From Escherichia phage Esco_phi_B-01: DNA of 64,000 bases. Below the pieces are notes generated by a model that did not search any database, had not been told where the DNA came from, and saw only the letters and a program-made list of their open reading frames with translations. The DNA lies in the sequence record OP292222.1; one strand, written 5' to 3'. Positions within the stretch are counted from its first letter, which is position 1. Each line of letters opens with the position of its first letter. Positions 1-10,223 of the stretch are shown here, one piece after another. Position numbers and translations under genes: made by a program.

Positions 1-183
1 CGGAAGTTTACGGTTATAATCTAGAAGACGAATTCTCCCATCCCATTGCCCGTAACGGTATTTAGGGTTAAATTTATATCCATCAGCTTCAAAGCTGAAA
101 TAGTCTCTGAGTTCGTAGAAGGTGGATTCATCACACTCAACACGAACATGACTAAAATTATCAAAATGTACTTGAATTTGCAT
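1..183 (-). CDS. uvsW: UvsW helicase, N-terminal 61 codons only (gene runs off window start)
   Basis: Minus-strand translation from ATG at 183 reads MQIQVHFDNFSHVRVECDESTFYELRDYFSFEADGYKFNPKYRYGQWDGRIRLLDYNRKLP, closely matching recalled T4 UvsW N-terminus. Confidence 0.8.
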   Translation of the reverse strand, partial: MQIQVHFDNFSHVRVECDESTFYELRDYFSFEADGYKFNPKYRYGQWDGRIRLLDYNRKLP

Positions 184-197
184 GTCTAATTCTCAGT

Positions 198-205
198 TAT
201 AAATA
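198..205 (+). promoter_or_regulatory. T4-type late promoter TATAAATA upstream of inh-like/hoc
   Basis: Exact TATAAATA 34 nt upstream of ATG 239; a minus-strand TATAAATA at 223-230 faces uvsW. Confidence 0.4.
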
Positions 206-238
206 TAATTATATTTATACACCAACAAGAGACTAATT

Positions 239-910
239 ATGGATACTCAATATATTGAAGAGCTTCGTGCACTCGAAGATAAAAAAGAAGCTAAAGCTAA
301 GTTAATCGAATACGGCGAACAATTCGGTTTAAAACTTAAGAAAACCCGTTCGTTTGATAATTTGATTATCGATATCTCTGAAGGCCTTAAAGCCTTGGCT
401 GATGAACCACTTCCAGAAACCGAAGGTTTGTCTATTTCCGATTTGATTGATGCTGCTGACGAACTCACAGGTGCTAATGAATTTGTTGATGGCGCGGAAC
501 CTGCCAAAGAAGAGGCTACCCTATTATTTGATGCCCCTGAAGCGGTAGTTGAAGTTATTGAGGTAGCCGAACTTCCTAAGGTAGAGATTATTGAAGAAGA
601 CGTCCCGTTTGTCGAAGAGAAATTCAAAGAGGCTGTAACCAAGGTTATTGAATCGGAAAAACCTGTATTCTCTTTGCCTGAAAACTTTAGCCCTAATCTT
701 TTACTCATTGGTAAAAACCCAGGGTATTGTACTGTGCCTTGGTGGATTTATCAATGGATTACCGAAACCCCTGATTGGAAAGAGCGTCCTAAAGATTTCC
801 AACACCCATCTGCCCACCAAACACTATTCAGTCTGATTTATTACATTAATCGTAATGGTTCAGTATTAGTACGTGAAACGCGTAATTCATCTTTCGTAAC
901 TTTAAAATAA
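239..910 (+). CDS. Acidic head-associated protein, candidate Inh (prohead protease inhibitor) by position and size
   Basis: 223 aa, Glu/Asp-rich, between uvsW and hoc as T4 inh (226 aa); sequence not recalled independently. Confidence 0.5.
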   Translation: MDTQYIEELRALEDKKEAKAKLIEYGEQFGLKLKKTRSFDNLIIDISEGLKALADEPLPETEGLSISDLIDAADELTGANEFVDGAEPAKEEATLLFDAPEAVVEVIEVAELPKVEIIEEDVPFVEEKFKEAVTKVIESEKPVFSLPENFSPNLLLIGKNPGYCTVPWWIYQWITETPDWKERPKDFQHPSAHQTLFSLIYYINRNGSVLVRETRNSSFVTLK

Positions 911-919
911 GGGTAAAAT

Positions 920-2329
920 ATGGCTTTTACTGTAAGTATAGCCGGCGCTGCGTCTATTAAAATAGGCGAAAGCGCCAACTACACTGCTACCGCAACAGGT
1001 GCAGCTGTAGAAGGAACCGTTACATATGTATGGACCATTGACGGTGCTTCTAATCCGGAGGCAACCAATGTTTTGAAATATACCGGTGTGGCTCCAGCTG
1101 GTAAGAAAGTTTTAAAAGTAGTAGCAACTTCTACTCCAGCCGAAGGCGAACCTGAGGTAGCTGAAAAAACTTTTGAAGTTACCGTAGCTAATAAGACCAT
1201 TGGGGCTCTTTCTTTGACCTTAGACCCTACTTCTGTTTCTAAAGAAATTGGTCAATCCCAAGTTGTTACTGCTAACGTATCGGGTGTCCCTGCTGGCGCT
1301 ACAATTACTTATGTTTGGAAACGTAATACAACTGTAATTTCAGGTCAAACTGGTAAAACTATTACCATAACCGAAGCAGCGGCAGCGAATTACACTTTGA
1401 ACTGTGAAGTTACTGTTACCGCCCCTGAATATGACCCGGCTACAGCTACTAAAGGTATTGCGGTAACTTTTGTTAAGAAAACTATATCAGGCGCTTCCGT
1501 TACTTTAACACCGGCCTCAATTAGTACAGAGAAAGGCTCATCTGCACAGTTTAAAGCGGATGTAGTTGGCGCTCCTTCCGGCGTAAATGCAACTTATTCT
1601 TGGAAGAAAAATGGTTCTATTATTCCGGGCGAAAGCAGTAATACCCTTGCTGTCGATACATCTACAGTAGGTTCTTACACTATTGAAGTTTCGGTAGTCC
1701 TAAAAGGTGCGGATTATAATGATTTAACCGTTACCAAAACCGGAAGTGTAACAATTACTAAAAAGACCATGACAGGTGTTTCTGTTACTTTAGCGCCGGC
1801 CTCTATTAATACTCCGGAAGGAACTCCAGCTTCTTTTAAAGCTACCGTAGCTGGCGCCCCTGCTGGTGCTACTTTTGCATATTCTTGGAAGAAAGATGGT
1901 TCGCCAGTCGCCGGTACCACAGATACTTTAGTAGTCGATACAAGTGCTGAAGGTTCACAGGTTATTGAAGTTTCTGTTGTGGTTTCGGCTACCGACTATA
2001 ATCCTGTGACTGTCAAAAAATCTGGTAATGTAACAATTACGCCTAAAGTCGCTCCTGAACCTGAAGGCGAACTACCTTACGTCCACCCGCTGCCGGTTCG
2101 TAATTCAGCGTATATTTGGGCCGGTTGGTGGGTTATGGATGAAATCCAGAAAATGACACTTGAAGGTAAAGATTGGAAAACTGATGACCCTGATAGCAAT
2201 TATTATCTCCATCGCTATACTCTTCAAAAAATGGTTGCCGATTATCCAGAGGTTGATGTACAAGAATCACGAAATGGAAGAATTATCCATCGTTCGGCTC
2301 TTGACACAGGTATAATTTATTTTTACTAA
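920..2329 (+). CDS. hoc: Hoc outer capsid decoration protein, four Ig-like repeats plus C-terminal capsid-binding domain
   Basis: 469 aa; four repeats of pattern TY.WK..G....G...TL.V.....G.Y..EV.V; C-terminal WAGWWVMDEIQ...YPEVDVQESRNG. Confidence 0.8.
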   Translation: MAFTVSIAGAASIKIGESANYTATATGAAVEGTVTYVWTIDGASNPEATNVLKYTGVAPAGKKVLKVVATSTPAEGEPEVAEKTFEVTVANKTIGALSLTLDPTSVSKEIGQSQVVTANVSGVPAGATITYVWKRNTTVISGQTGKTITITEAAAANYTLNCEVTVTAPEYDPATATKGIAVTFVKKTISGASVTLTPASISTEKGSSAQFKADVVGAPSGVNATYSWKKNGSIIPGESSNTLAVDTSTVGSYTIEVSVVLKGADYNDLTVTKTGSVTITKKTMTGVSVTLAPASINTPEGTPASFKATVAGAPAGATFAYSWKKDGSPVAGTTDTLVVDTSAEGSQVIEVSVVVSATDYNPVTVKKSGNVTITPKVAPEPEGELPYVHPLPVRNSAYIWAGWWVMDEIQKMTLEGKDWKTDDPDSNYYLHRYTLQKMVADYPEVDVQESRNGRIIHRSALDTGIIYFY

Positions 2330-2343
2330 TTTTGGCTAAATAA

Positions 2344-2372
2344 AAACGGGAGAGCGAAAGCTCTCCCGTTTT
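2344..2372. terminator. Bidirectional hairpin terminator between convergent hoc and hoc-like gene
   Basis: cgggagagc-gaaa-gctctcccg stem-loop flanked by A and T runs. Confidence 0.6.
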
Positions 2373-2373
2373 G

Positions 2374-3234
2374 TTATATGACATTTAATGTCAGGTGCTT
2401 CCTATTCAAAATATACCCATTTCTTGATTCCTGTATTTCTACATCAGGATATCGTGACAAAAGTTCTGCCACTTTTGCGAGCTCACACTTATACCTAAAA
2501 TTGCTATCTTCTATATTGATAGCCCAATCCTGGTTTTTATCAAGGGCACCTTTTATCTCATCCAACACCCACCAGCCTATCCACATGTGGGCCCTATTTC
2601 GGCCACCTGGATAAGACAAATACTGATTTAAATCATGTGAGTATATAAATGGACACACTTCAGGTTCAGGTAAATCACCATCCATAGGCATAATATCTAC
2701 CGTAACTATATCATGATACGGATTATAAGCACCTTCGGCTGTGGCAGAGACATTAAGAGAATATGTCCCATACATAGAAGGCTTTATATCAACATCTAAA
2801 TCCTTTACATTTGAAACCATTTTATCATATTTCCACCATTCACACTCTACTTCGGCCCAGGGTGTGGTACCCATAGAAATTAAAGGTTGTAAAGAAACTT
2901 TTTGACCTATTTCAGCCTTTATGATAGCATCTAAATTTTCTATGGAAATAACTATATCTCTAGGCTCTATCCCGATTTCCAAAACAAAATCTTCGCTTTG
3001 AAAAGTCTCTTGTGTTAGCTTATCAGTGGCTATCGCATAATAAGTCCCTGCTGCAGGAAACCCTACATCCCAAAGATTTAGATACATCGGGTCTTCTTTA
3101 TCTAATAATGGAACGTTTACACCGTTTTTGTACCATTTTATATCGACATCGGTTAAAGATTCAGATAAAACAGCCCTAAGAGTTACCGTTCTCCCAACCA
3201 ATTCATAATGAGGTCCATTTACTTGTATAGACAT
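2374..3234 (-). CDS. Hoc-family paralog: Ig-like N-terminal domains plus Hoc-type C-terminal domain
   Basis: 286 aa; C-terminal HMWIGWWVLDEIK...YPDVEIQESRNGYILNR aligns with Hoc C-terminus in this window; Ig-like motifs IKWYKNG, AGTYYAIATD. Confidence 0.75.
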   Translation of the reverse strand: MSIQVNGPHYELVGRTVTLRAVLSESLTDVDIKWYKNGVNVPLLDKEDPMYLNLWDVGFPAAGTYYAIATDKLTQETFQSEDFVLEIGIEPRDIVISIENLDAIIKAEIGQKVSLQPLISMGTTPWAEVECEWWKYDKMVSNVKDLDVDIKPSMYGTYSLNVSATAEGAYNPYHDIVTVDIMPMDGDLPEPEVCPFIYSHDLNQYLSYPGGRNRAHMWIGWWVLDEIKGALDKNQDWAINIEDSNFRYKCELAKVAELLSRYPDVEIQESRNGYILNRKHLTLNVI

Positions 3235-3245
3235 GCTACCTCCAA

Positions 3246-4253
3246 TTAATAAGGGAAACTAACCATTTTAACCAATATAGGTTTATTAGAATCTACACTG
3301 CGCCCGTGTTGAAATACCGTTATTTCTGAAATTGTTTTAGAACCCCATTCCTTTAAGGTTATATTAATAGGACGTAGCCCGTTATATGCCGCACTTACTA
3401 TAACAAATGAGCCTGTAGGAGACAAAGTCTTAGTTCCGCCACCGGTAGTAACCGTTCCACCCGAAACACTAGGAGCAACAAAGTGATAATCACAATATCG
3501 GGTAGTCCCACCTTTACTTAAAATGCTGTATTCTATTTGGTTGTTAACCAATCTAACTCTAAGAACCGTATTGGCGACCCCAGGTATTTTTATTTCGCCG
3601 TACCCAGCAGCAACGTTGGTATACTTATGGAATGAAAACAAATCTGTACCATCTTTACCAGGTTCGCCTTGAGGACCCTGAGGACCTAGAGGGCCAGTAG
3701 CTCCGTCAAGTCCATCAATCCCATCCACCCCAGGAGGACCTTGAACACCTTGCGGACCCTGCTCACCATCTTTACCCGGGATACCCTGTTCGCCTTGTGC
3801 ACCCTGAGAAGCCAATAAGGCCCAGTAAAGGCTGTTTTCTTCAGCAGGATTATTACCGGTAGAATCCTGAACGCAAAAATAAGAAGCCCCATTGTACCCT
3901 ACTGCATCATCCTTAACATAGGCTGTTGCAGCACTCCATGTTCCTTTCCAATTTAGACCCACAGGGCCTACAGGACCAGCCGGGCCTCTCGGTCCTACAA
4001 TGCTTTCACCTTTAGGGCCAGGGATACCAGGGGATAACATTTCTTCGGATATCCCCAAATGAGCCAGAACTTCAGCTCTTCCGGATTTACTAACCAAGCC
4101 TAAGCCATACGAATTACTCCCTACCAATCTTGCCGGGTTTATAAGACTTTCTTTAGTAAGAATTTTTTCAAAAGGGATAACAGTATCCGATTCCTTTAAA
4201 GCAATACCGGAAAAGGTCCCTCGACCGTCATGACCAAAAATAGAATCTGCCAT
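3246..4253 (-). CDS. Collagen-like repeat protein with embedded CBM5/12-like carbohydrate-binding motif
   Basis: 335 aa; Gly-X-Y runs (GIPGPKGESIVGPRGPAGPVGPVG and about 17 triplets GAQGEQGIPGKDGEQGPQGVQGPPGVDGIDGLDGATGPLGPQGPQGEPGKDG) flanking W..TAY..DAVGYNGASYFCVQ...W; GGAG RBS. Confidence 0.75.
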   Translation of the reverse strand: MADSIFGHDGRGTFSGIALKESDTVIPFEKILTKESLINPARLVGSNSYGLGLVSKSGRAEVLAHLGISEEMLSPGIPGPKGESIVGPRGPAGPVGPVGLNWKGTWSAATAYVKDDAVGYNGASYFCVQDSTGNNPAEENSLYWALLASQGAQGEQGIPGKDGEQGPQGVQGPPGVDGIDGLDGATGPLGPQGPQGEPGKDGTDLFSFHKYTNVAAGYGEIKIPGVANTVLRVRLVNNQIEYSILSKGGTTRYCDYHFVAPSVSGGTVTTGGGTKTLSPTGSFVIVSAAYNGLRPINITLKEWGSKTISEITVFQHGRSVDSNKPILVKMVSFPY

Positions 4254-4292
4254 TTAATACTCCTGTTTACAAGTTAAAAATCCTATGTTAAG

Positions 4293-4535
4293 ATGGCTTT
4301 ACCAAACTCAACAAGAGAATTTGTTATGGATAAGGTTAAAGTACATTTTTTACATGAATCTGGACTTAATTTTATAGAAATTGCTAAAAAATTAGGTGGT
4401 ACTGCTAAAGACATGGCTAAAGCATGGGTTGATGTGGAACAGGCCAAGGCCAAATTTAAGTCAAAAGAGAAAGTAGTATATCGCAAACGTCTAATCAATA
4501 AGGTTCGGCGCAAAGCGCGTTCTAGTTCAAAGTAA
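4293..4535 (+). CDS. Small basic protein, possible helix-turn-helix
   Basis: 80 aa, Lys/Arg-rich C-terminus; weak RBS, start uncertain (alternative ATG 4326). Confidence 0.4.
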   Translation: MALPNSTREFVMDKVKVHFLHESGLNFIEIAKKLGGTAKDMAKAWVDVEQAKAKFKSKEKVVYRKRLINKVRRKARSSSK

Positions 4536-4563
4536 TATGCTTTAAATTTAGGTGTGTTATAAT
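4536..4563 (+). promoter_or_regulatory. Candidate T4 middle promoter (MotA box TGCTTTA plus extended -10 TGTTATAAT) for rnlB
   Basis: ATGCTTTA at 4537-4544, TATAAT at 4558-4563 with TGn, 13 bp apart. Confidence 0.3.
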
Positions 4564-4649
4564 GGGTCTAGGTCCTTCCGTTAAACCATTTGGCTTGGTG
4601 ACAGAAGATTACTAGCTCTTCTATTTAATTATATTTATTATGGTGATTT

Positions 4650-5657
4650 ATGTTCAAGAAATATAGCAGTCTGGAAAACCACTACAACAGTAAGTTTATC
4701 GAAAAACTCCGTACCAATGGTTTGACTGGTGGCGAATGGGTAGCACGTGAGAAGATTCATGGAACCAACTTTAGTTTAATCATAGAACGTGACGCAGTCA
4801 CATGCGCCAAGCGCACGGGTCCAATTCTCCCTGCTGAAGATTTCTATGGTTATGAAATTGTACTTAAGAACTATGCTGATTCTATTAAATCCGTACAAGA
4901 TATTATGGAAACTTCGGCAGCCGTATCTTATCAAGTTTTCGGTGAATTCGCTGGAACAGGCATTCAGAAGAACGTTGATTACGGTGATAAAGATTTTTAT
5001 GTATTTGACATTATTGTTACAACCGAAAGTGGCGATGTGACTTATGTCGACGATTATATGATGGAATCATTTTGTAAGACGTTCAAATTTAAAACGGCGC
5101 CACTTTTAGGTCGTGGTAAATTTGAAGACCTTATTAAATTGCCAAATGATTTGGATTCCGTCCTTCCTGATTATAATTTTACAGTAGATAATGTCGGGCT
5201 AGCCGAAGCTAATGCTCATGTGTGGAATGCTGAAGCAAAAGGCGAAGTATTTACCGCTGAAGGGTACGTATTAAAACCTTGTTATCCACTTTGGCTCCCT
5301 AATGGAAATCGTGTAGCGATTAAATGTAAGAACTCTAAATTCAGCGAGAAGAAAAAGTCTGATAAGCCTATTAAAGTTGCAGTAGTATTATCTCAAGACG
5401 ATTTAGATTTATTACAACAATTCACTGATTATGTGACTGTTAACCGTATTAACAACGTTATCAGTAAGATTGGTGAAGTATCACCTAAAGATTTCGGAAA
5501 GGTAATGGGACTGACGGTCCAAGATATTTTGGAAGAGGCAGCCCGTGAAGAATTAGAATTAACCGATGCAGAAAACCCTGTTGAAGTTAAAAAGCAGCTC
5601 GTTGAGTGTGTAAAAGATACGCTACGGGCCGTGTGGATTGAATTAGTATCCAAATAA
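4650..5657 (+). CDS. rnlB: RNA ligase 2 (Rnl2)
   Basis: 335 aa; near-colinear with recalled T4 Rnl2 ([20 protein letters not shown]..., KIHGTN adenylyltransferase motif I). Confidence 0.9.
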
Positions 5658-5662
5658 ACAGT

Positions 5663-5692
5663 AAAGGGACCTTACGGTCCCTTTTATTTTTC
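5663..5692. terminator. Bidirectional hairpin terminator between rnlB and gp24 paralog
   Basis: gggacc-ttac-ggtccc then T-run. Confidence 0.6.
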
Positions 5693-6964
5693 TAGTGGTG
5701 GAAGTTTAACACCAAGATAAGAACTCAACTGGCTTTGGTTAGCCATTTTGTCCATATCAGAGCCATCAATAATGCGGGCTTCTTTATCGTCCTTAGCGAC
5801 GGTATAAGGGTTTGCAGTCAATGCATAACGAGCAAGCAATGCTACTGTAGGTTGTAAGCTTTCCGGGTCAACAATAACCTTAAATTCACCTACTGAAGTA
5901 TCACCTTCTTCATCAACCACATCCAAACCTTCCGTATAAGGCGCATAATATAAAGATGCGACCGTCTGTCCTTCACCCATCTGGGCATTTACACCAACAA
6001 TAACATAATCACATGGACTATTCATATCAGCATAAAGAGGCAGACCATTCTTTAATACACCATAGGCCAATTCGTCTTGGTCTTCCTTTTTCTCAACCCA
6101 ACCGGAAGCGGCGAGAATAGCAGCACAACGAGAACTAGCTACTGCATAAGTCCCAGCGAAAGAAGTTTGACGTTGGACGGCAGAGTTCATCTCACACATG
6201 TAATAATATAATGTACGAGCACGGTCCTGGGCGTTATCGTAACGTGGGTTGGTAAGGTCTAATACACCTTTTTCAGAAACACCTTGGACTTTAAAACGAG
6301 AACTCACCGTAATTAATGACTGTAATACATCCTTATTAATTTCTTCTGCCATTTGGATGCCTAGCAGATTTTCAACGAAATTAGGAGCATTAAACCCGTT
6401 TGATTCTAGGTCCTGGGCTAATTCGACTGTCAATGAAGTTTTCAGTTTACGTGATTTAACTTCAGATTGCCATTTATCAATACGGAAGCCTGCTTCAGCA
6501 ATTTCAGGATGGCCTTGTTCGAATTTAGAAGTAATAGCAGCATCCGATACCATACGAATATGTCCGGCTGCCACTGCTTCAGAAATAACTTCACCGAGGT
6601 CGGTTTCTGTGGTTCCAGCGAAAGGAGATGCTTCTAGAACTTTAAACACCACACTTTCAAACTGGAACATATCGCCGGCTGCATAAGCTGTAGACGAATC
6701 GGCAAATTCAGGAATATTTTCACGTTCCGACATACCAATCTGGCCCGCAAATGTAGCACCACCAAGATAAGTCATTTTGTCGTCAGGGTTAAGTACACGA
6801 ACCCCGTACAGAGCAGCAACAGGTTGGCTTGTTTTTTGTTCAGCAACTAGGGCTTTAAAGATTCGTTTATTAGTTGCTTGGGTGTATGAAAGAAGAGCAG
6901 GACGGCCAACCGAGTTGGCAGCCGTCAATGTGGATTCTTTAATTAGGTCTATAATCTTAGACAT
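5684..6964 (-). CDS. Second gp24-family head vertex protein (diverged paralog)
   Basis: 426 aa; gp24/gp23 fold motifs shared with adjacent gp24 (RIDKWQSEVKSRKLKT, ELAQDLESNGF, EINKDVLQSLITVS) but strongly diverged. Confidence 0.85.
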   Translation of the reverse strand: MSKIIDLIKESTLTAANSVGRPALLSYTQATNKRIFKALVAEQKTSQPVAALYGVRVLNPDDKMTYLGGATFAGQIGMSERENIPEFADSSTAYAAGDMFQFESVVFKVLEASPFAGTTETDLGEVISEAVAAGHIRMVSDAAITSKFEQGHPEIAEAGFRIDKWQSEVKSRKLKTSLTVELAQDLESNGFNAPNFVENLLGIQMAEEINKDVLQSLITVSSRFKVQGVSEKGVLDLTNPRYDNAQDRARTLYYYMCEMNSAVQRQTSFAGTYAVASSRCAAILAASGWVEKKEDQDELAYGVLKNGLPLYADMNSPCDYVIVGVNAQMGEGQTVASLYYAPYTEGLDVVDEEGDTSVGEFKVIVDPESLQPTVALLARYALTANPYTVAKDDKEARIIDGSDMDKMANQSQLSSYLGVKLPPLEK

Positions 6965-8247
6965 TAATCAGCCTCGTAAATAATTGCTGGAAGTTTAACA
7001 CCAAGCAGATAAGACATATTACTCTGTCCGGCCATTAAATCCATATTGGTGGCATCGATAACACGAGCTTCTTTATCGTCTTTAGCTACGGTGTACGGGT
7101 TAGCGGACAGTGCATAACGAACCATCAGAGAAATAGAAGGCTGTAATGAATCCGGGTCGACAATAACCTTATAAGCACCAACGTGTTCTGGGTCGTCTAA
7201 ATCCAGGCCTTCTGTATACGGGGCATAGAAAATAGAACCGACAACTTCATTACCGCCATAGTTCTCTTTAACACCTACGATAACATAATCCAATGGGCTG
7301 TTAACGTCACAGAACAATGGTAATCCATTCAACAAATAACCATAGGCAGTTTCTGGGAGCCAATTATTATCTTCAGGTCTATGTTTTAACCAGCCAGAAC
7401 CTGCAAGCATTGCAGCCACACGACTTGAAGCCACAACAAACGTACCGGAATAAGAAGTAGTTTTCTGGATTTCAGAATTCATCTCACAAACAATTTCATA
7501 AAGTTTACGTGCAGATTCTGGAGCACTATCATAAGTCAAATCGATGATGCCATTATCAGATACACCCGTAACTTTATAGCGTTTAGATACGGTTATCAGA
7601 GATTGCAGAACGTCTTTATTAATTTCATCTGCCATTACTGTAGCCAGGAGGTCTTCTAAGAATGCAGGGGCGTCGAAGCCATTTGATTCCATATCCTGGG
7701 CCAATTCTACAGTCAAAGCAGTCTTCAATTTACGGGTCTTAACAGGAGCATTCCATTTATTAACCTGGAATACAGCATCAGAGATTTCTACATTACTCGC
7801 TTCGAATTTAGTGGTATGGGCTGCATCAGGAACCAGACGACATGTTAATGACACCAAACCTTCTTGAAGGGCATCAGCCAATCCTGTAGCGCTAGTGGAT
7901 GCGAGTGGGCTTGCTTGAAGAGCCTTATAAACCACATTCTGATACTTAAAGTAGTCACCCTTGGCAATCGCCTGGGCTTTATCTGTGAGTTCTGGGATAG
8001 TTTCACGGTCTTTAGAACCAACTTCACCACCATAAACAGCACCAGTTTGGAAACTGAATTCATTATCAGGGGTAAGATATTTGACACCGTACAATGCAGC
8101 AATAGGCTGACTAGTACGTTGTTCAGCGATGATATCGCGATAAATTAGTTTAGTGGTAGCACGGGTCAAAGCAACAAGATTAGGGCGACCCAATGAGTTG
8201 CTGGTAGTAGTTGTTGACTCGCGCAGTAATTCGTTAATCTTTGCCAT
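6964..8247 (-). CDS. 24: Head vertex protein gp24
   Basis: 427 aa; MAKINELLRESTTT... matches recalled T4 gp24; stop overlaps start of paralog at 6964. Confidence 0.9.
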   Translation of the reverse strand: MAKINELLRESTTTTSNSLGRPNLVALTRATTKLIYRDIIAEQRTSQPIAALYGVKYLTPDNEFSFQTGAVYGGEVGSKDRETIPELTDKAQAIAKGDYFKYQNVVYKALQASPLASTSATGLADALQEGLVSLTCRLVPDAAHTTKFEASNVEISDAVFQVNKWNAPVKTRKLKTALTVELAQDMESNGFDAPAFLEDLLATVMADEINKDVLQSLITVSKRYKVTGVSDNGIIDLTYDSAPESARKLYEIVCEMNSEIQKTTSYSGTFVVASSRVAAMLAGSGWLKHRPEDNNWLPETAYGYLLNGLPLFCDVNSPLDYVIVGVKENYGGNEVVGSIFYAPYTEGLDLDDPEHVGAYKVIVDPDSLQPSISLMVRYALSANPYTVAKDDKEARVIDATNMDLMAGQSNMSYLLGVKLPAIIYEAD

Positions 8248-8275
8248 TGCGCTTTCCTTATTGAGGGTATATGTT

Positions 8276-8283
8276 TATTTATA
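8276..8283 (-). promoter_or_regulatory. Late promoter TATAAATA (minus) for gene 24
   Basis: Reverse complement of tatttata, about 30 nt upstream of gp24 start. Confidence 0.45.
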
Positions 8284-8288
8284 AAGTT

Positions 8289-8340
8289 GTTTACAGCAAG
8301 GTTCTCACGTGTTACTATAGTCCTATCAAAACACGAGGAG
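8289..8340 (+). promoter_or_regulatory. Early promoter with stem-loop (PeSL-like) driving the 88-aa ORF
   Basis: GTTTAC, 18-bp spacer, TACTAT, then conserved AGTCCTATCAAAAC. Confidence 0.5.
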
Positions 8341-8347
8341 ATTAAAA

Positions 8348-8614
8348 ATGAACAAATTAAACTTTATCCGTACCACGCTTTCTAACCTTGACAAAGACAT
8401 CAAAGCTCTGGTAGAAAAATTTGGTACCAATCCTAACGGTAATGCAGTTAATGCATTGGTTAAGAAATACGAAGCTCTGGCTTATGAAACCGACTTCTGG
8501 TGGAACGGCGAATACTCTACCCATACCAAAGACAAATATGGTAACTGGCTGAAAATCCAAGAAAATCGTATTGACTTCCGTGATATCATCAACCGTCGAG
8601 TTAAGATTGCATAG
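8348..8614 (+). CDS. Hypothetical protein at the position occupied by segD in T4
   Basis: 88 aa; GGAG RBS; own promoter and downstream terminator. Confidence 0.5.
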   Translation: MNKLNFIRTTLSNLDKDIKALVEKFGTNPNGNAVNALVKKYEALAYETDFWWNGEYSTHTKDKYGNWLKIQENRIDFRDIINRRVKIA

Positions 8615-8629
8615 TACAGAAACAAGAAT

Positions 8630-8647
8630 GGGAGACCGAAGTCTCCC
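8630..8647. terminator. Hairpin terminator (tetraloop) shared by gp23 and the 88-aa ORF
   Basis: gggagac-cgaa-gtctccc. Confidence 0.6.
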
Positions 8648-8663
8648 ATAATAAGGTTAGGTA

Positions 8664-10223
8664 TTAGATACCTTTAACATAAACGCGACGGAAGTAACCA
8701 TTCAGACCGAGGCTGTTAACGATGTCAGGCATACCGCTCTGAATACGTTTGGTAGGAGCCTGTGCAGACGGGTCAGCGAACGGGTTAATACCGATACCGT
8801 AACGAGTTTTGAAGCCCATTACCGGCTGGAAGTTCTTCGGATCGGAACCGCGCAGTGGGGTAAGTGCAACGTAAGGAGCGTAGTAGATACCTGCGTCCAT
8901 TTCGTTGGAACCTTTATAACCGATGGTGAAGTAATCAGCACGGGCATACTGGTCGATGTAAACGCGATATTTACCACCAAGAACACCGGCAAATACTGCT
9001 TTAGTGGTGTCAACGTTGAAACCTTGACCCAGACCTTGAGCTGCATAACTTACAGAAGTATCAACTGCAGCCAGTACGTTAACTACGTTACGGGAAGCGA
9101 TGATGAAGTTACCAGCACCACGACCGGTCTGACGAGCGATTTCGGCTGCTTCTTTATCAATCTGGAACAGAAGGGCTTTAAAGCTCTCACCGGCCCAACG
9201 AGCACCACGGATATCAATCGGGTCCTGGAAGTCAAACACACCAGCTTTAGCGCCAACGGTGTTGGTCATACCAGATTTACCAACCTGTGCAGAGTAGTTA
9301 ATCCAATCGATAACTTCACGGTTGATTTCGAGCATAATTTCGGTAGCAAGGATACCGGACAGTTCAGCATCTGCATCCATACCGTGTACTGCACGAAGGT
9401 CCTGTGCCAGTTCGATGGAATAGCTTGCTTTCAGCTGACGGGATTTAGCTTCGATAACTTGTTTATCGATACGGAAGCCCATTTCGTTCCACGGGTTATC
9501 CTGAGAACCGTTAAAGCCTTCCTGAAGTTCAGCGATAGAAGTAGCCATACCTTCAGCCAATTCAGCCAGCTGACCAGCTTCCAACAGAGCAGTTACGGCA
9601 ACATCCAGTTTAGCGGCATCAGTAGCAGCAGCATCAACGGTTACGGCTTCAACAGCCTGGAAGTGTGCAGCACCGGTAGCTTCGAAGAAGTGAGAATAAA
9701 TTTTACCAACTTCCAGAACTTTACCTGCAGCCAGTGCTTCAAAAGTCTGAGCAGCGCCCTGACCAGAGAACATAGCGTTCGGAGCATACATCGGGTGGAA
9801 AGCTTCTTTAGCGCCAGCAGCGATAGGGTCTTTACCGTATACTGCACGCAGTGCAAATACCTGGCCGGTAGGGTTATTCAGAGGCTGAACACCACAAATA
9901 TCAAAAGCAATCAGATGAGGAATAGCACGACGAACCATACCCATTACTGCCGGCCCAATCTGAGTTACAGCACCAGAGGTCTGGCCAGCTGCGATATTGG
10001 TAGCATCATAACCGTGGTCACCACCGATTTCAGCTTCGGTCAGGAAAGAACCAAATGCTTCAGAGATTTTTTCGTCACGATATTCAGGAGCGGTCAGAAT
10101 ATCTTGTTCCTGGTTTTCGAAAATTTTAGCGATGATAGCTTGTTTAGAAGCACCAACGATTTCAGGAAGAGCTTCGTTTTCCAGCAGAGCGGACCATTTT
10201 TGAACTAATGCATTCTTTTTCAT
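8664..10223 (-). CDS. 23: Major capsid protein gp23
   Basis: 519 aa; long stretches identical to recalled T4 gp23 (AEIGGDHGY..., QIGPAVMGMVRRAIP, DNPWNEMGFRIDKQVIEAKSRQLKA). Confidence 0.97.
   Translation of the reverse strand: MKKNALVQKWSALLENEALPEIVGASKQAIIAKIFENQEQDILTAPEYRDEKISEAFGSFLTEAEIGGDHGYDATNIAAGQTSGAVTQIGPAVMGMVRRAIPHLIAFDICGVQPLNNPTGQVFALRAVYGKDPIAAGAKEAFHPMYAPNAMFSGQGAAQTFEALAAGKVLEVGKIYSHFFEATGAAHFQAVEAVTVDAAATDAAKLDVAVTALLEAGQLAELAEGMATSIAELQEGFNGSQDNPWNEMGFRIDKQVIEAKSRQLKASYSIELAQDLRAVHGMDADAELSGILATEIMLEINREVIDWINYSAQVGKSGMTNTVGAKAGVFDFQDPIDIRGARWAGESFKALLFQIDKEAAEIARQTGRGAGNFIIASRNVVNVLAAVDTSVSYAAQGLGQGFNVDTTKAVFAGVLGGKYRVYIDQYARADYFTIGYKGSNEMDAGIYYAPYVALTPLRGSDPKNFQPVMGFKTRYGIGINPFADPSAQAPTKRIQSGMPDIVNSLGLNGYFRRVYVKGI

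What the first reader, a model, noticed from the sequence alone, without database searches (positions are those of the whole stretch)
920..2329. hoc carries four Ig-like repeats and lies tail-to-tail with its paralog
The 469-aa Hoc shows four Ig-like repeats rather than the three usually described for T4 Hoc (376 aa). The 3' ends of hoc and the paralog face each other across a bidirectional terminator and share short DNA similarity in the capsid-binding-domain coding region (around 2100-2150 versus 2560-2610, inverted). That arrangement could support recombination or domain exchange.
Basis: partly seen in the sequence, partly recalled or inferred. Interest (0 to 1): 0.5.

Follow-up and report, generated by a model that had tools for sequence, protein, structure and literature searches.

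The report
Four-domain Hoc and its short paralog
This T4-like coliphage has a head-decoration gene (hoc) with four instead of three immunoglobulin-like modules, lying tail-to-tail with an old, short hoc paralog; both features are real but already known for this phage group, and nothing suggests the two genes swap parts.

Summary
The window is a Dhakavirus (JS10/JS98-like T4 relative). ORF 920-2329 (+) is the T4 Hoc ortholog. It has four 95-aa Ig-like modules plus the capsid-binding C-domain. This rests on a 285-nt DNA periodicity, the alignment to T4 Hoc, and an AlphaFold model with four beta-sandwich domains. ORF 2374-3234 (-) is a genuine Hoc paralog with two Ig-like domains plus a C-domain. 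The two genes converge on a perfect 13-bp-arm hairpin that looks like a terminator on both strands.

It is exactly what conservation of the W-x-G-W-W-V-x-D-E motif predicts: codon resampling gives 52.0% identity against 51.7% observed, and the longest exact match is 13 nt. In five genomes the C-domains of the two lineages are 31-43% identical with no within-genome rise, so exchange between the paralogs is unsupported.

The recombination that is visible is among direct repeats inside hoc. Close relatives differ by exact 95-aa modules, giving 3-, 4- and 5-Ig classes, and the 4-Ig class is common.

JS10's record already annotates both genes as hoc. Fokine et al. 2023 describe variable Ig numbers and second short Hocs.

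Side observation: hoc2 is almost always preceded by a collagen-like fibre gene with a conserved N-terminal domain.

The parts
198..205 (+). T4-type late-promoter consensus TATAAATA upstream of inh-hoc
   Evidence: Exact match. Inh (239-910) ends 9 nt before the hoc start, so co-transcription of inh and hoc is inferred, not shown.
239..910 (+). inh (inhibitor of prohead protease gp21), the upstream neighbour of hoc as in JS10
   Evidence: ORF; the JS10 annotation of the syntenic gene is.
920..2329 (+). hoc (Hoc1), 469 aa: Ig1-Ig2-Ig3-Ig4 plus the capsid-binding C-domain
   Evidence: A 100%-identical protein is on an unnamed 170,483-bp NCBI record. JS10 Hoc is 98% identical.
920..1198 (+). Ig-like module 1 (aa 1-93)
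   Evidence: AF2 beta domain 4-90. Aligns to T4 Hoc domain 1.
1199..1483 (+). Ig-like module 2 (aa 94-188)
   Evidence: AF2 beta domain 98-185. It is the unit that is duplicated in the 563-565-aa relatives.
1484..1768 (+). Ig-like module 3 (aa 189-283), the 'extra' module relative to 3-Ig Hocs
   Evidence: Exactly these 285 nt are absent from the otherwise ~84-95% identical locus L008. All 3-Ig relatives lack aa 186-280.
1769..2053 (+). Ig-like module 4 (aa 284-378)
   Evidence: AF2 beta domain 288-374. 57% identical to module 3. Orthologous to T4 Ig3.
2054..2326 (+). Capsid-binding C-terminal domain of Hoc1 (aa 379-469), with Y387, H389, R394, W403, W404, D407 and E449-S-R-N-G453
   Evidence: 87% identity and TM 0.77 to 8t1x_X, the T4 Hoc C-domain on gp23*. 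Motif positions. Contact residues from PMC10385173.
2343..2372 (.). Palindromic hairpin between the two stop codons: a putative bidirectional intrinsic terminator
   Evidence: 13-nt perfect arms and a GAAA loop (I21). Terminator-like on both strands. dG -23.6 / -22.2 kcal/mol, z -6.7 / -6.8.
2374..3234 (-). hoc2, 286 aa: two Ig-like domains plus a diverged capsid-binding C-domain (aa ~188-286; Y198, H200, R212, W221, W222, D225, E269-S-R-N-G273)
   Evidence: JS10 annotates the 94%-identical gene as 'hoc head outer capsid protein'.
3246..4253 (-). Collagen-like / CBM5_12 'tail fiber-like' gene, 335 aa, 11 nt upstream of hoc2; the conserved partner of hoc2
   Evidence: Pfam Collagen 1.2e-10 and CBM_5_12 7e-5, the latter at 23.2 bits, below its 26.2-bit cut-off. 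Synteny with hoc2 in other phages.

Best explanation
**What the locus is.** It holds two long-diverged members of the Hoc head-decoration family in convergent orientation, with one palindromic hairpin that probably terminates both.

**Hoc1.** Hoc1 is the direct ortholog of T4 Hoc. Its C-domain keeps essentially all residues that dock T4 Hoc into the centre of a gp23* hexamer. A string of Ig-like modules projects outward. Here the string has four modules, because the allele carries one more 95-aa module (Ig3) than T4-type alleles.

**How module number changes.** It changes in exact 285-nt steps. Every module boundary encodes the same linker, (V/T)KKT(M/I)(S/T)G(V/A)SVTL. Misaligned recombination or slippage between direct repeats, or recombination with a different hoc allele in a co-infection, therefore adds or removes whole modules in frame.

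**Hoc2.** Hoc2 is an old paralog, not a recent inverted duplicate. It keeps the docking motifs, so it probably binds the same capsomer site. It is inherited together with the collagen-like gene upstream of it.

**The DNA similarity.** The short inverted similarity between the two C-domain coding regions is a by-product of purifying selection on the docking motif. It is not a functional recombination substrate.

**Shown and inferred.**
- Shown: gene structures, module count, paralogy, the hairpin, exact-module indels among relatives, and the absence of an exchange signal.
- Inferred: capsid binding by both proteins, terminator function, and the unequal-recombination mechanism.
For: Module count:
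- Four modules from DNA periodicity, repeat units, the alignment to T4 Hoc, the AF2 model and fold matches.
- The Hoc1 C-domain has TM 0.77 and 87% identity to the T4 Hoc C-domain.

Module indels:
- Homologs fall into length classes of 373-377, 467-472 and 563-565 aa.
- 3-Ig relatives lack aa 186-280, and 5-Ig relatives have +95 aa after residue 184. The extra unit in the 5-Ig forms is a copy of Ig2.
- Contig L008 differs from the window hoc by a single 285-nt gap (1484-1768), placed at the repeated KKT linker. Its hoc2 is 94.5% and its collagen-like gene 90.1% identical in nt.
- Per-module identities are mosaic. For example P0005 is 53 / 76 / 91 / 98 / 87% across Ig1 / Ig2 / Ig3 / Ig4 / C.

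Age of Hoc2:
- Hoc2 orthologs occur in other Dhakavirus phages and in Gelderlandvirus, Roskildevirus and Aeromonas phages.
- The convergent hoc/hoc2 arrangement is also seen in IME08, dhabil and ABTNLsp5.

Docking and exchange:
- Docking residues are conserved in both proteins.
- Nucleotide similarity equals the expectation from the proteins.
- The C-domain identity matrix shows no within-genome rise.
Against: - No experiment here shows that either protein is on the capsid, or that the hairpin terminates transcription.
- The direction of the Ig3 indel is unresolved: loss in 3-Ig alleles or gain in 4-Ig alleles.
- Ig3 is only 57% identical to Ig4, so it is not a recent duplicate in this lineage.
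- At present the repeated linkers share only 8-9-nt exact runs (read from the sequence). Unequal crossing-over within this genome would be rare, and allele replacement between co-infecting phages may be the more frequent route.
- No late promoter consensus lies directly upstream of the collagen-like/hoc2 pair, so its expression timing is unknown.
Confidence: 0.85

Rival explanations
1. The inverted, homologous C-domain coding segments act as a substrate for homologous recombination. This would invert the segment between them and swap C-terminal tails, or convert one paralog with the other.
For: - The geometry is right. Recombination between inverted repeats in convergent genes would exchange the 3' ends in frame.
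- Short patches of similarity exist: 20/27 nt at 2114-2140 / 2560-2586, 35 nt at 80% at 2243-2277 / 2417-2451, and 13 nt exact at 2054-2066 / 2658-2670.
- A small inversion at this very locus is visible. The terminator loop is GAAA in the window and TTTC in JS10.
Against: - Overall codon-aligned identity is 51.7%, equal to the 52.0% expected from the proteins alone.
- The longest exact match is 13 nt. From my own knowledge (Singer et al. 1982, Cell 31:25), efficient T4 recombination needs about 50 bp of homology.
- Inverted repeats of similar quality occur between non-homologous parts of the same 2.4 kb (I2-I5).
- C-domain identities separate cleanly into a Hoc1 and a Hoc2 lineage in five genomes, at 33-43% between lineages, with no within-genome rise.
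- The loop flip rests on 13-bp perfect arms 4 nt apart. That is a different situation.
Confidence: 0.04
2. Hoc2 is a recent inverted duplication of hoc within this phage lineage, and has since lost two Ig modules.
For: The two genes are adjacent and share the C-domain fold and the Ig-like modules.
Against: - Identity is only 30% over 197 aa and 39% in the C-domain.
- Hoc2 orthologs at 33-51% identity exist in Gelderlandvirus, Roskildevirus, Aeromonas phage 65 and others. Each is closer to window Hoc2 than Hoc1 is.
- Hoc2 has a 9-residue insertion in the beta1-beta2 loop, also present in the P0121-P0124 homologs.
Confidence: 0.02
3. Hoc2 is not an independent decoration protein. It is one half of a two-gene head-fibre module. 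The short Hoc2 docks on the capsomer, and it either holds the collagen-like, carbohydrate-binding trimeric fibre encoded just upstream or cooperates with it.
For: - The gene pair is conserved across distant T4-like phages while the surroundings change: JS10, dhabil, dhaeg, CLB_P2, CGG4-1, ABTNLsp5, FBB1, Cronus, IT22, Phynn, and Aeromonas phages 65, AS4, GomatiRiver_11 and AhFM11.
- The two genes overlap at stop/start in Aeromonas 65 and FBB1.
- Only the ~75-aa N-terminal domain of the upstream protein (motif GHDG(R/L)GxFxG) is conserved. The collagen, CBM and C-terminal parts vary, as expected for an attachment domain carrying a variable tip.
- IME08 keeps a 24-codon remnant of that gene in front of hoc2.
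Against: - There is no evidence of physical contact.
- Synteny could reflect co-mobility of two accessory genes in a hypervariable region.
- The stoichiometry is awkward: a monomeric Hoc against a trimeric collagen.
- PHROGs and depositors call the upstream gene a tail fibre.
- IME08 and PspYZU05 keep a Hoc2-like gene without an intact partner next to it.
Confidence: 0.3

Closest known systems
T4 Hoc (highly immunogenic outer capsid protein; PDB 5vf3_Z, 8t1x; 376 aa)
   Same: - Same family and the same genomic neighbourhood beside inh.
- The C-domain is about 87-90% identical, with all docking residues and the ESRNG loop.
- Ig1, Ig2 and Ig4 of the window align to T4 Ig1, Ig2 and Ig3.
   Different: - One additional 95-aa Ig-like module (aa 189-283), giving 469 aa.
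- From my own knowledge of the T4 map, T4 has no second hoc and no collagen-like gene here. I did not check the T4 record.
Escherichia phage JS10 hoc pair (ACL78404.1 and ACL78403.1) and 'tail fiber-like protein' ACL78402.1
   Same: - The same three genes in the same order and orientation.
- 98%, 94% and 99.7% protein identity.
- Both hoc genes are already annotated as 'hoc head outer capsid protein'.
   Different: - About 94% nt identity overall.
- The terminator loop is flipped: TTTC against GAAA.
- JS10 has an extra small ORF between 24.3 and rnlB.
467-472-aa Hoc proteins of Klebsiella, Salmonella and Shigella T4-like phages (e.g. KP185, vB_KpnM-JEC, SG1)
   Same: The same four-module plus C-domain architecture at 66-70% identity over the full length. 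This is the commonest class among the 120 best clusters.
   Different: Ig1 is only about 53% identical and Ig3 about 60%. I did not examine whether they have a second hoc.
Second, short Hoc proteins described by Fokine et al. 2023 (Serratia phage Muldoon, 314 aa, two Ig + C-domain; Enterobacter phage PG7); Aeromonas phage 65 hoc-2
   Same: - A short paralog with one or two Ig-like domains plus the capsid-binding C-domain, alongside a longer Hoc.
- Aeromonas 65 hoc-2 is 34% identical to window Hoc2 over its full length, and it too follows a collagen-like gene.
   Different: - The paper does not mention the collagen-like partner gene.
- I did not test orthology between Muldoon or PG7 short Hoc and window Hoc2.

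Membership tests
Hoc family (T4 highly immunogenic outer capsid protein): Hoc1, 920-2329 | C-terminal capsid-binding domain homologous to T4 Hoc 281-376, including the conserved E-S-R-N-G loop and the W-W pair | tested here: met
   phmmer 3e-118 to 5vf3_Z. Foldseek TM 0.77 and 87% identity to 8t1x_X. ESRNG at 449-453 and WW at 403-404. Residue roles from PMC10385173.
Hoc family (T4 highly immunogenic outer capsid protein): Hoc1, 920-2329 | N-terminal linear string of Ig-like beta-sandwich domains | tested here: met
   AF2 model with four all-beta domains, pLDDT about 90 or higher. Fold matches to multi-Ig and cadherin strings. Pfam Ig_3 36.2 bits against a 30-bit cut-off.
Hoc family (T4 highly immunogenic outer capsid protein): Hoc1, 920-2329 | One copy bound at the centre of each expanded gp23* hexamer | not testable with these tools
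   Needs virion proteomics or cryo-EM. Inferred only from conserved contact residues.
Hoc family: Hoc2, 2374-3234 | C-terminal capsid-binding domain with the ESRNG loop and the W-W pair | tested here: met
   phmmer 3.6e-16 to T4 Hoc 222-370. Invariant columns Y198, R212, W222, D225 and E269-R271, with G273, in the 14-sequence alignment. Motif positions. PHROG 1149 'Hoc-like head decoration' 3.7e-46.
Hoc family: Hoc2, 2374-3234 | Ig-like domains N-terminal to the C-domain | tested here: met
   AF2 model with two beta domains, 3-88 and 97-183. The best PDB fold hit is RB49 Hoc 3shs, E 4.7e-12. Pfam hits are sub-threshold only.
Bidirectional intrinsic (rho-independent) terminator | Stable G+C-rich stem-loop followed by a U-run, on both strands | tested here: met
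   The scan finds it on both strands. dG -23.6 / -22.2 kcal/mol with 0 of 200 shuffles as stable. The arms include an AAAA / TTTT extension (I21).
Bidirectional intrinsic (rho-independent) terminator | Transcripts of both genes end at the hairpin | not testable with these tools
   Needs 3'-end mapping (Term-seq or RNA-seq).
Inverted-repeat recombination / gene-conversion substrate between paralogs | Extended stretch of near-identical inverted DNA (tens of bp) | tested here: not met
   Longest exact match 13 nt. 51.7% identity over 261 aligned nt, equal to the 52.0% protein-only expectation.
Inverted-repeat recombination / gene-conversion substrate between paralogs | Phylogenetic trace of exchange, meaning within-genome paralogs more alike than expected | tested here: not met
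   Between-lineage C-domain identity is 33-43% in all five genomes. The within-genome values are 39 (window), 38 (JS10), 34 (dhabil), 33 (IME08) and 43 (CGG4-1).

The most novel reading that the evidence does not exclude
The short paralog Hoc2 and the collagen-like / CBM5_12 gene directly upstream of it (window 3246-4253) form a conserved two-gene head-fibre module.
- In this reading Hoc2 docks on gp23 hexamers. The ~75-aa N-terminal domain of the upstream protein (GHDG(R/L)GxFxG) is the only conserved part of an otherwise variable, probably trimeric fibre. That domain would attach to Hoc2 or next to it.
- Some T4-like phages would then carry a second, carbohydrate-binding kind of capsid fibre.
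- The pairing is seen in at least 14 named phages of several genera.
- I found no paper describing it in the held library.
Probability: 0.3. Interest if true: 0.5.

Novelty: already known. Interest (0 to 1): 0.15.

Why it matters
For the finding as given, very little changes. The locus is a well-behaved example of known Hoc modularity, and both genes are already annotated as hoc in the near-identical phage JS10.

Three points are still useful:
- The window and contig L008 are a clean natural pair that differ by exactly one Ig module. That could serve studies of Hoc fibre length, for example mucus adherence or phage display.
- The appealing inverted-paralog recombination idea can be set aside.
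- The conserved pairing of a collagen-like fibre gene with hoc2 gives a concrete hypothesis about a second capsid decoration system in T4-like phages. It can be tested by virion proteomics or cryo-EM.

Tried and rejected
- **Pfam as a domain counter.** Whole-protein Ig_3, I-set and Ig_2 pass their cut-offs, but only two stretches are called. Single modules are sub-threshold and Ig1 has no Ig, PKD or other Ig-like hit. The count therefore rests on the repeats, the T4 alignment and the AF2 model.
- **Foldseek of the whole Hoc1 model.** It ranked generic multi-Ig, cadherin and complement chains first, not RB49 Hoc. This supports the fold class and the C-domain match only.
- **The JS98 genome paper** (DOI 10.1128/JB.00838-07) is not held.
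- **Literature searches** for 'Hoc-like' plus collagen, and for head fibre plus collagen-like, gave nothing relevant.
- **IMG/VR scan with the N-domain alignment.** It returned only CGG4-1 and Aeromonas phage 65 again, so the pairing could not be quantified beyond GenBank phages.
- **Search for a late promoter in front of the collagen-like/hoc2 pair.** There is no TATAAATA within one mismatch in the 39-nt gap upstream. A sigma-70-like match at 4657-4628 (-) is only a consensus hit.
- **PDB sequence search with the collagen-like protein.** It hit only collagens.
- **Rejected: recent inverted duplication**.
- **Rejected: exchange through the inverted C-domain segments**.
Full report
**Identity of the window**

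Bases 1-6000 match Escherichia phage JS10 (Straboviridae, Tevenvirinae, Dhakavirus) at 94.4% identity over 100% of the query. In JS10 the syntenic genes are annotated uvsW, inh, hoc, hoc, tail fiber-like protein, gp24.3, rnlB, 24b and 24a. The three proteins of interest occur with 100% identity on an unnamed NCBI record of 170,483 bp.

**The observation: the gene and its four modules**

ORF 920-2329 (+) encodes 469 aa. Several independent lines show four repeats:
- The repeat finder reports a four-copy family with start-to-start spacing of exactly 285, 285 and 285 nt, at 981, 1266, 1551 and 1836.
- Cutting the protein into units of 93, 95, 95 and 95 aa gives pairwise identities of 27-37%, and 57% for units 3 and 4.
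- phmmer against PDB sequences finds T4 Hoc (376 aa, 5vf3_Z) at 3e-118 in two pieces. Query 1-177 aligns to T4 1-178, and query 194-469 aligns to T4 99-375. T4 domain 2 is therefore used twice, and the query has one module more than T4.
- An AlphaFold2 model built on 37 homologs (mean pLDDT 87.8) has four all-beta domains at 4-90, 98-185, 193-280 and 288-374. A less confident alpha/beta C-domain follows.
- Foldseek matches strings of Ig and cadherin-type domains. [quoted passage not shown]

Pfam alone would not have settled the count. Ig_3, I-set and Ig_2 pass their cut-offs for the whole protein, but only two stretches are called. The separate modules are sub-threshold, and Ig1 has no Ig, PKD or other Ig-like hit.

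**The paralog and the hairpin**

ORF 2374-3234 (-) encodes 286 aa.
- It aligns with Hoc1 at 7e-19, at 30% identity over 197 aa covering the last Ig module and the C-domain.
- It aligns with T4 Hoc at 3.6e-16.
- Its AlphaFold2 model (pLDDT 84.3) has two beta domains and a C-domain.
- Its best PDB fold match is the crystal structure of the Ig domains of RB49 Hoc, 3shs.

The two stop codons are 44 nt apart. Between them lies AAAACGGGAGAGC-GAAA-GCTCTCCCGTTTT at 2343-2372 (I21). The scan calls it terminator-like on both strands. It folds at -23.6 and -22.2 kcal/mol, with z about -6.7 and -6.8. Terminator function is inferred.

**The inverted DNA similarity**

That is better than random 51-mers of the window (P about 3e-4). 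This is the coding sequence of the motif (I/M)W-x-G-W-W-V-x-D.

- Over the 261 codon-aligned nt of the two C-domains, identity is 51.7%. The longest exact run is 13 nt, in the PEPE linker at 2054-2066 / 2658-2670.
- I resampled synonymous codons from the phage's own codon usage with both protein sequences held fixed. This gives 52.0 +/- 1.8% identity (P = 0.60), a longest run of 10.9 +/- 2.1 nt (P = 0.21), and 18.6 +/- 2.7 identical codons at identical residues against 20 observed (P = 0.37).
- The DNA similarity is therefore fully explained by protein conservation. There is no sign of recent gene conversion.
- The same 2.4 kb contains inverted repeats of similar length and quality between unrelated positions (I2-I5).

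**Test of exchange across genomes**

I took the C-terminal 100 residues of the Hoc proteins of the window, JS10, dhabil, IME08 (all Dhakavirus), Salmonella phage CGG4-1 (Gelderlandvirus), Aeromonas phage 65 and Erwinia phage FBB1.
- The Hoc1 lineage is 70-100% identical within itself.
- The Hoc2 lineage of Dhakavirus and Gelderlandvirus is 58-95% identical within itself.
- Between these two lineages the values are 33-43%. The within-genome values are not raised: 39 for the window, 38 for JS10, 34 for dhabil, 33 for IME08 and 43 for CGG4-1.

The two paralogs therefore separated before these genera did, and they have kept their own C-domains. The convergent arrangement is itself conserved in IME08, dhabil and ABTNLsp5. 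The hairpin sequence differs there, and dhabil has an extra small ORF between the genes.

**What does vary: the number of modules**

The 120 best homolog clusters fall into three length classes: 29 of 373-377 aa, 87 of 467-472 aa, and 4 of 563-565 aa.
- In an alignment of 37 of them, every short form lacks residues 186-280 of the window protein. Every long form has exactly 95 extra residues after residue 184.
- The extra unit of the long forms is a second copy of module 2.
- All boundaries fall in the recurring linker (V/T)KKT(M/I)(S/T)G(V/A)SVTL.
- A metagenomic contig (L008) carries the same locus, with hoc2 94.5% and the collagen-like gene 90.1% identical in nt. Its hoc differs from the window's by a single gap of exactly 285 nt (1484-1768), placed at the KKT repeat.
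- Identities per module are mosaic. For example P0005 is 53, 76, 91, 98 and 87% across Ig1-Ig4 and the C-domain. This points to recombination between hoc alleles of different phages.

Recombination does shape this gene. It acts through direct repeats and allele exchange, not through the inverted paralog. The direction of the Ig3 indel is not resolved.

**Comparison with what is known**

Fokine et al. [quoted passage not shown]
- They report 650 homologs, most of them strings of Ig-like domains, with up to 10 in Serratia phage Muldoon.
- They describe second, short Hocs with one or two Ig-like domains in Muldoon and PG7.
- The JS98 Hoc C-domain is in their alignment.
- The residues they list as contacting gp23*, or as holding the ESRNG loop in place, are present in both window proteins. 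These are Y293, H295, R300, W309, W310, D313 and E355-G359 in T4. They correspond to Y387, H389, R394, W403, W404, D407 and 449-453 in Hoc1, and to Y198, H200, R212, W221, W222, D225 and 269-273 in Hoc2.

Binding of both proteins to the hexamer centre is thus a reasonable inference, and it would make them competitors for the same sites. JS10's GenBank record already names both genes hoc.

**Side observation**

The gene directly upstream of hoc2 (3246-4253, -, 335 aa) has collagen repeats and a sub-threshold CBM5_12-like segment (23.2 bits against a 26.2-bit cut-off).
- Its first ~75 residues carry the motif GHDG(R/L)GxFxG. This domain recurs in front of Hoc2-lineage genes in JS10, dhabil, dhaeg, CLB_P2, Ec2-ASingh, CGG4-1, ABTNLsp5, Cronus, IT22, FBB1, Phynn, and Aeromonas phages 65, 65.2, AS4, GomatiRiver_11 and AhFM11. 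The genes on either side of the pair differ between genera.
- The two genes overlap in Aeromonas 65 and FBB1.
- Phynn's version has no collagen segment.
- IME08 keeps a 24-codon remnant in front of hoc2, plus a frameshifted copy after gp24.
- PspYZU05 has a decayed remnant next to an Ig-less 132-aa Hoc.

A conserved N-terminal domain with a variable rest is the usual pattern of a fibre that is anchored by its N-terminus. I found no paper on this pairing in the held library. This is a hypothesis only.

**Verdict**

The description is accurate except that the DNA similarity is trivial. The recombination reading is not supported. Both the four-module Hoc and the second short Hoc are already known kinds and are already annotated in the sister phage. 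Interest is low for the finding itself. The gene pair of collagen-like fibre and hoc2 is the only part that might repay further work.

Noticed in passing
window 2374-4253 (-); also L001, L002, L004, L005, L006, L010, L011: The collagen-like / CBM5_12 gene and hoc2 form a gene pair conserved across several genera of T4-like phages. Only the ~75-aa N-terminal domain of the upstream protein (motif GHDG(R/L)GxFxG) is conserved; its middle and C-terminal parts vary.
   Followed up: partly
window 2356-2359 versus L001 (JS10), same position: The 4-nt loop of the palindromic hairpin is GAAA in the window and in contig L008 but TTTC in JS10, with identical stems and flanks. That is a flipped loop, best explained by one small inversion between the 13-bp arms rather than four substitutions.
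   Followed up: partly
L003 (IME08) 1088-1290 and 3913-3987: IME08 has a 24-codon remnant (MPDNPLYGHDGRG...) of the N-domain gene directly upstream of its hoc2. It also has a second N-domain ORF just after gp24 that is out of frame with the annotated collagen-like CDS. This could be a frameshift, a pseudogene or a sequencing error.
   Followed up: no
window 5684-6964 (-) and 6964-8247 (-): There are two tandem gp24 (head vertex) paralogs, 56% identical, annotated 24b and 24a in JS10. This is already annotated for the group.
   Followed up: partly
window 198-205 (+) and 212-219 (-): A back-to-back pair of exact T4 late-promoter consensus sequences (TATAAATA) lies in the uvsW-inh intergenic region. 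The motif occurs 18 times in the window against 7.2 expected. None lies directly upstream of the collagen-like/hoc2 pair.
   Followed up: partly
L002 (dhabil) about 3340-3600; L001 (JS10) 6148-6516; L008 7318-7581: Small accessory ORFs come and go around this locus. Dhabil carries extra sequence, with a second hairpin, between the two hoc genes. JS10 and L008 carry a small extra ORF between gp24.3 and rnlB that the window lacks.
   Followed up: no
L004 (CGG4-1) 5883-8717: Salmonella phage CGG4-1 has a third Hoc-family gene of 944 aa, annotated as hypothetical. It has a Hoc-type C-domain (41-46% identical to the Hoc2 lineage) and lies tail-to-tail with its Hoc2 ortholog.
   Followed up: no
L007 (PspYZU05) 3501-4165: Pseudomonas phage PspYZU05 has a decayed N-domain ORF followed by a 132-aa Hoc. 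The Hoc is too short to hold Ig domains, and only the C-domain (window Hoc2 residues 150-286) matches.
   Followed up: no
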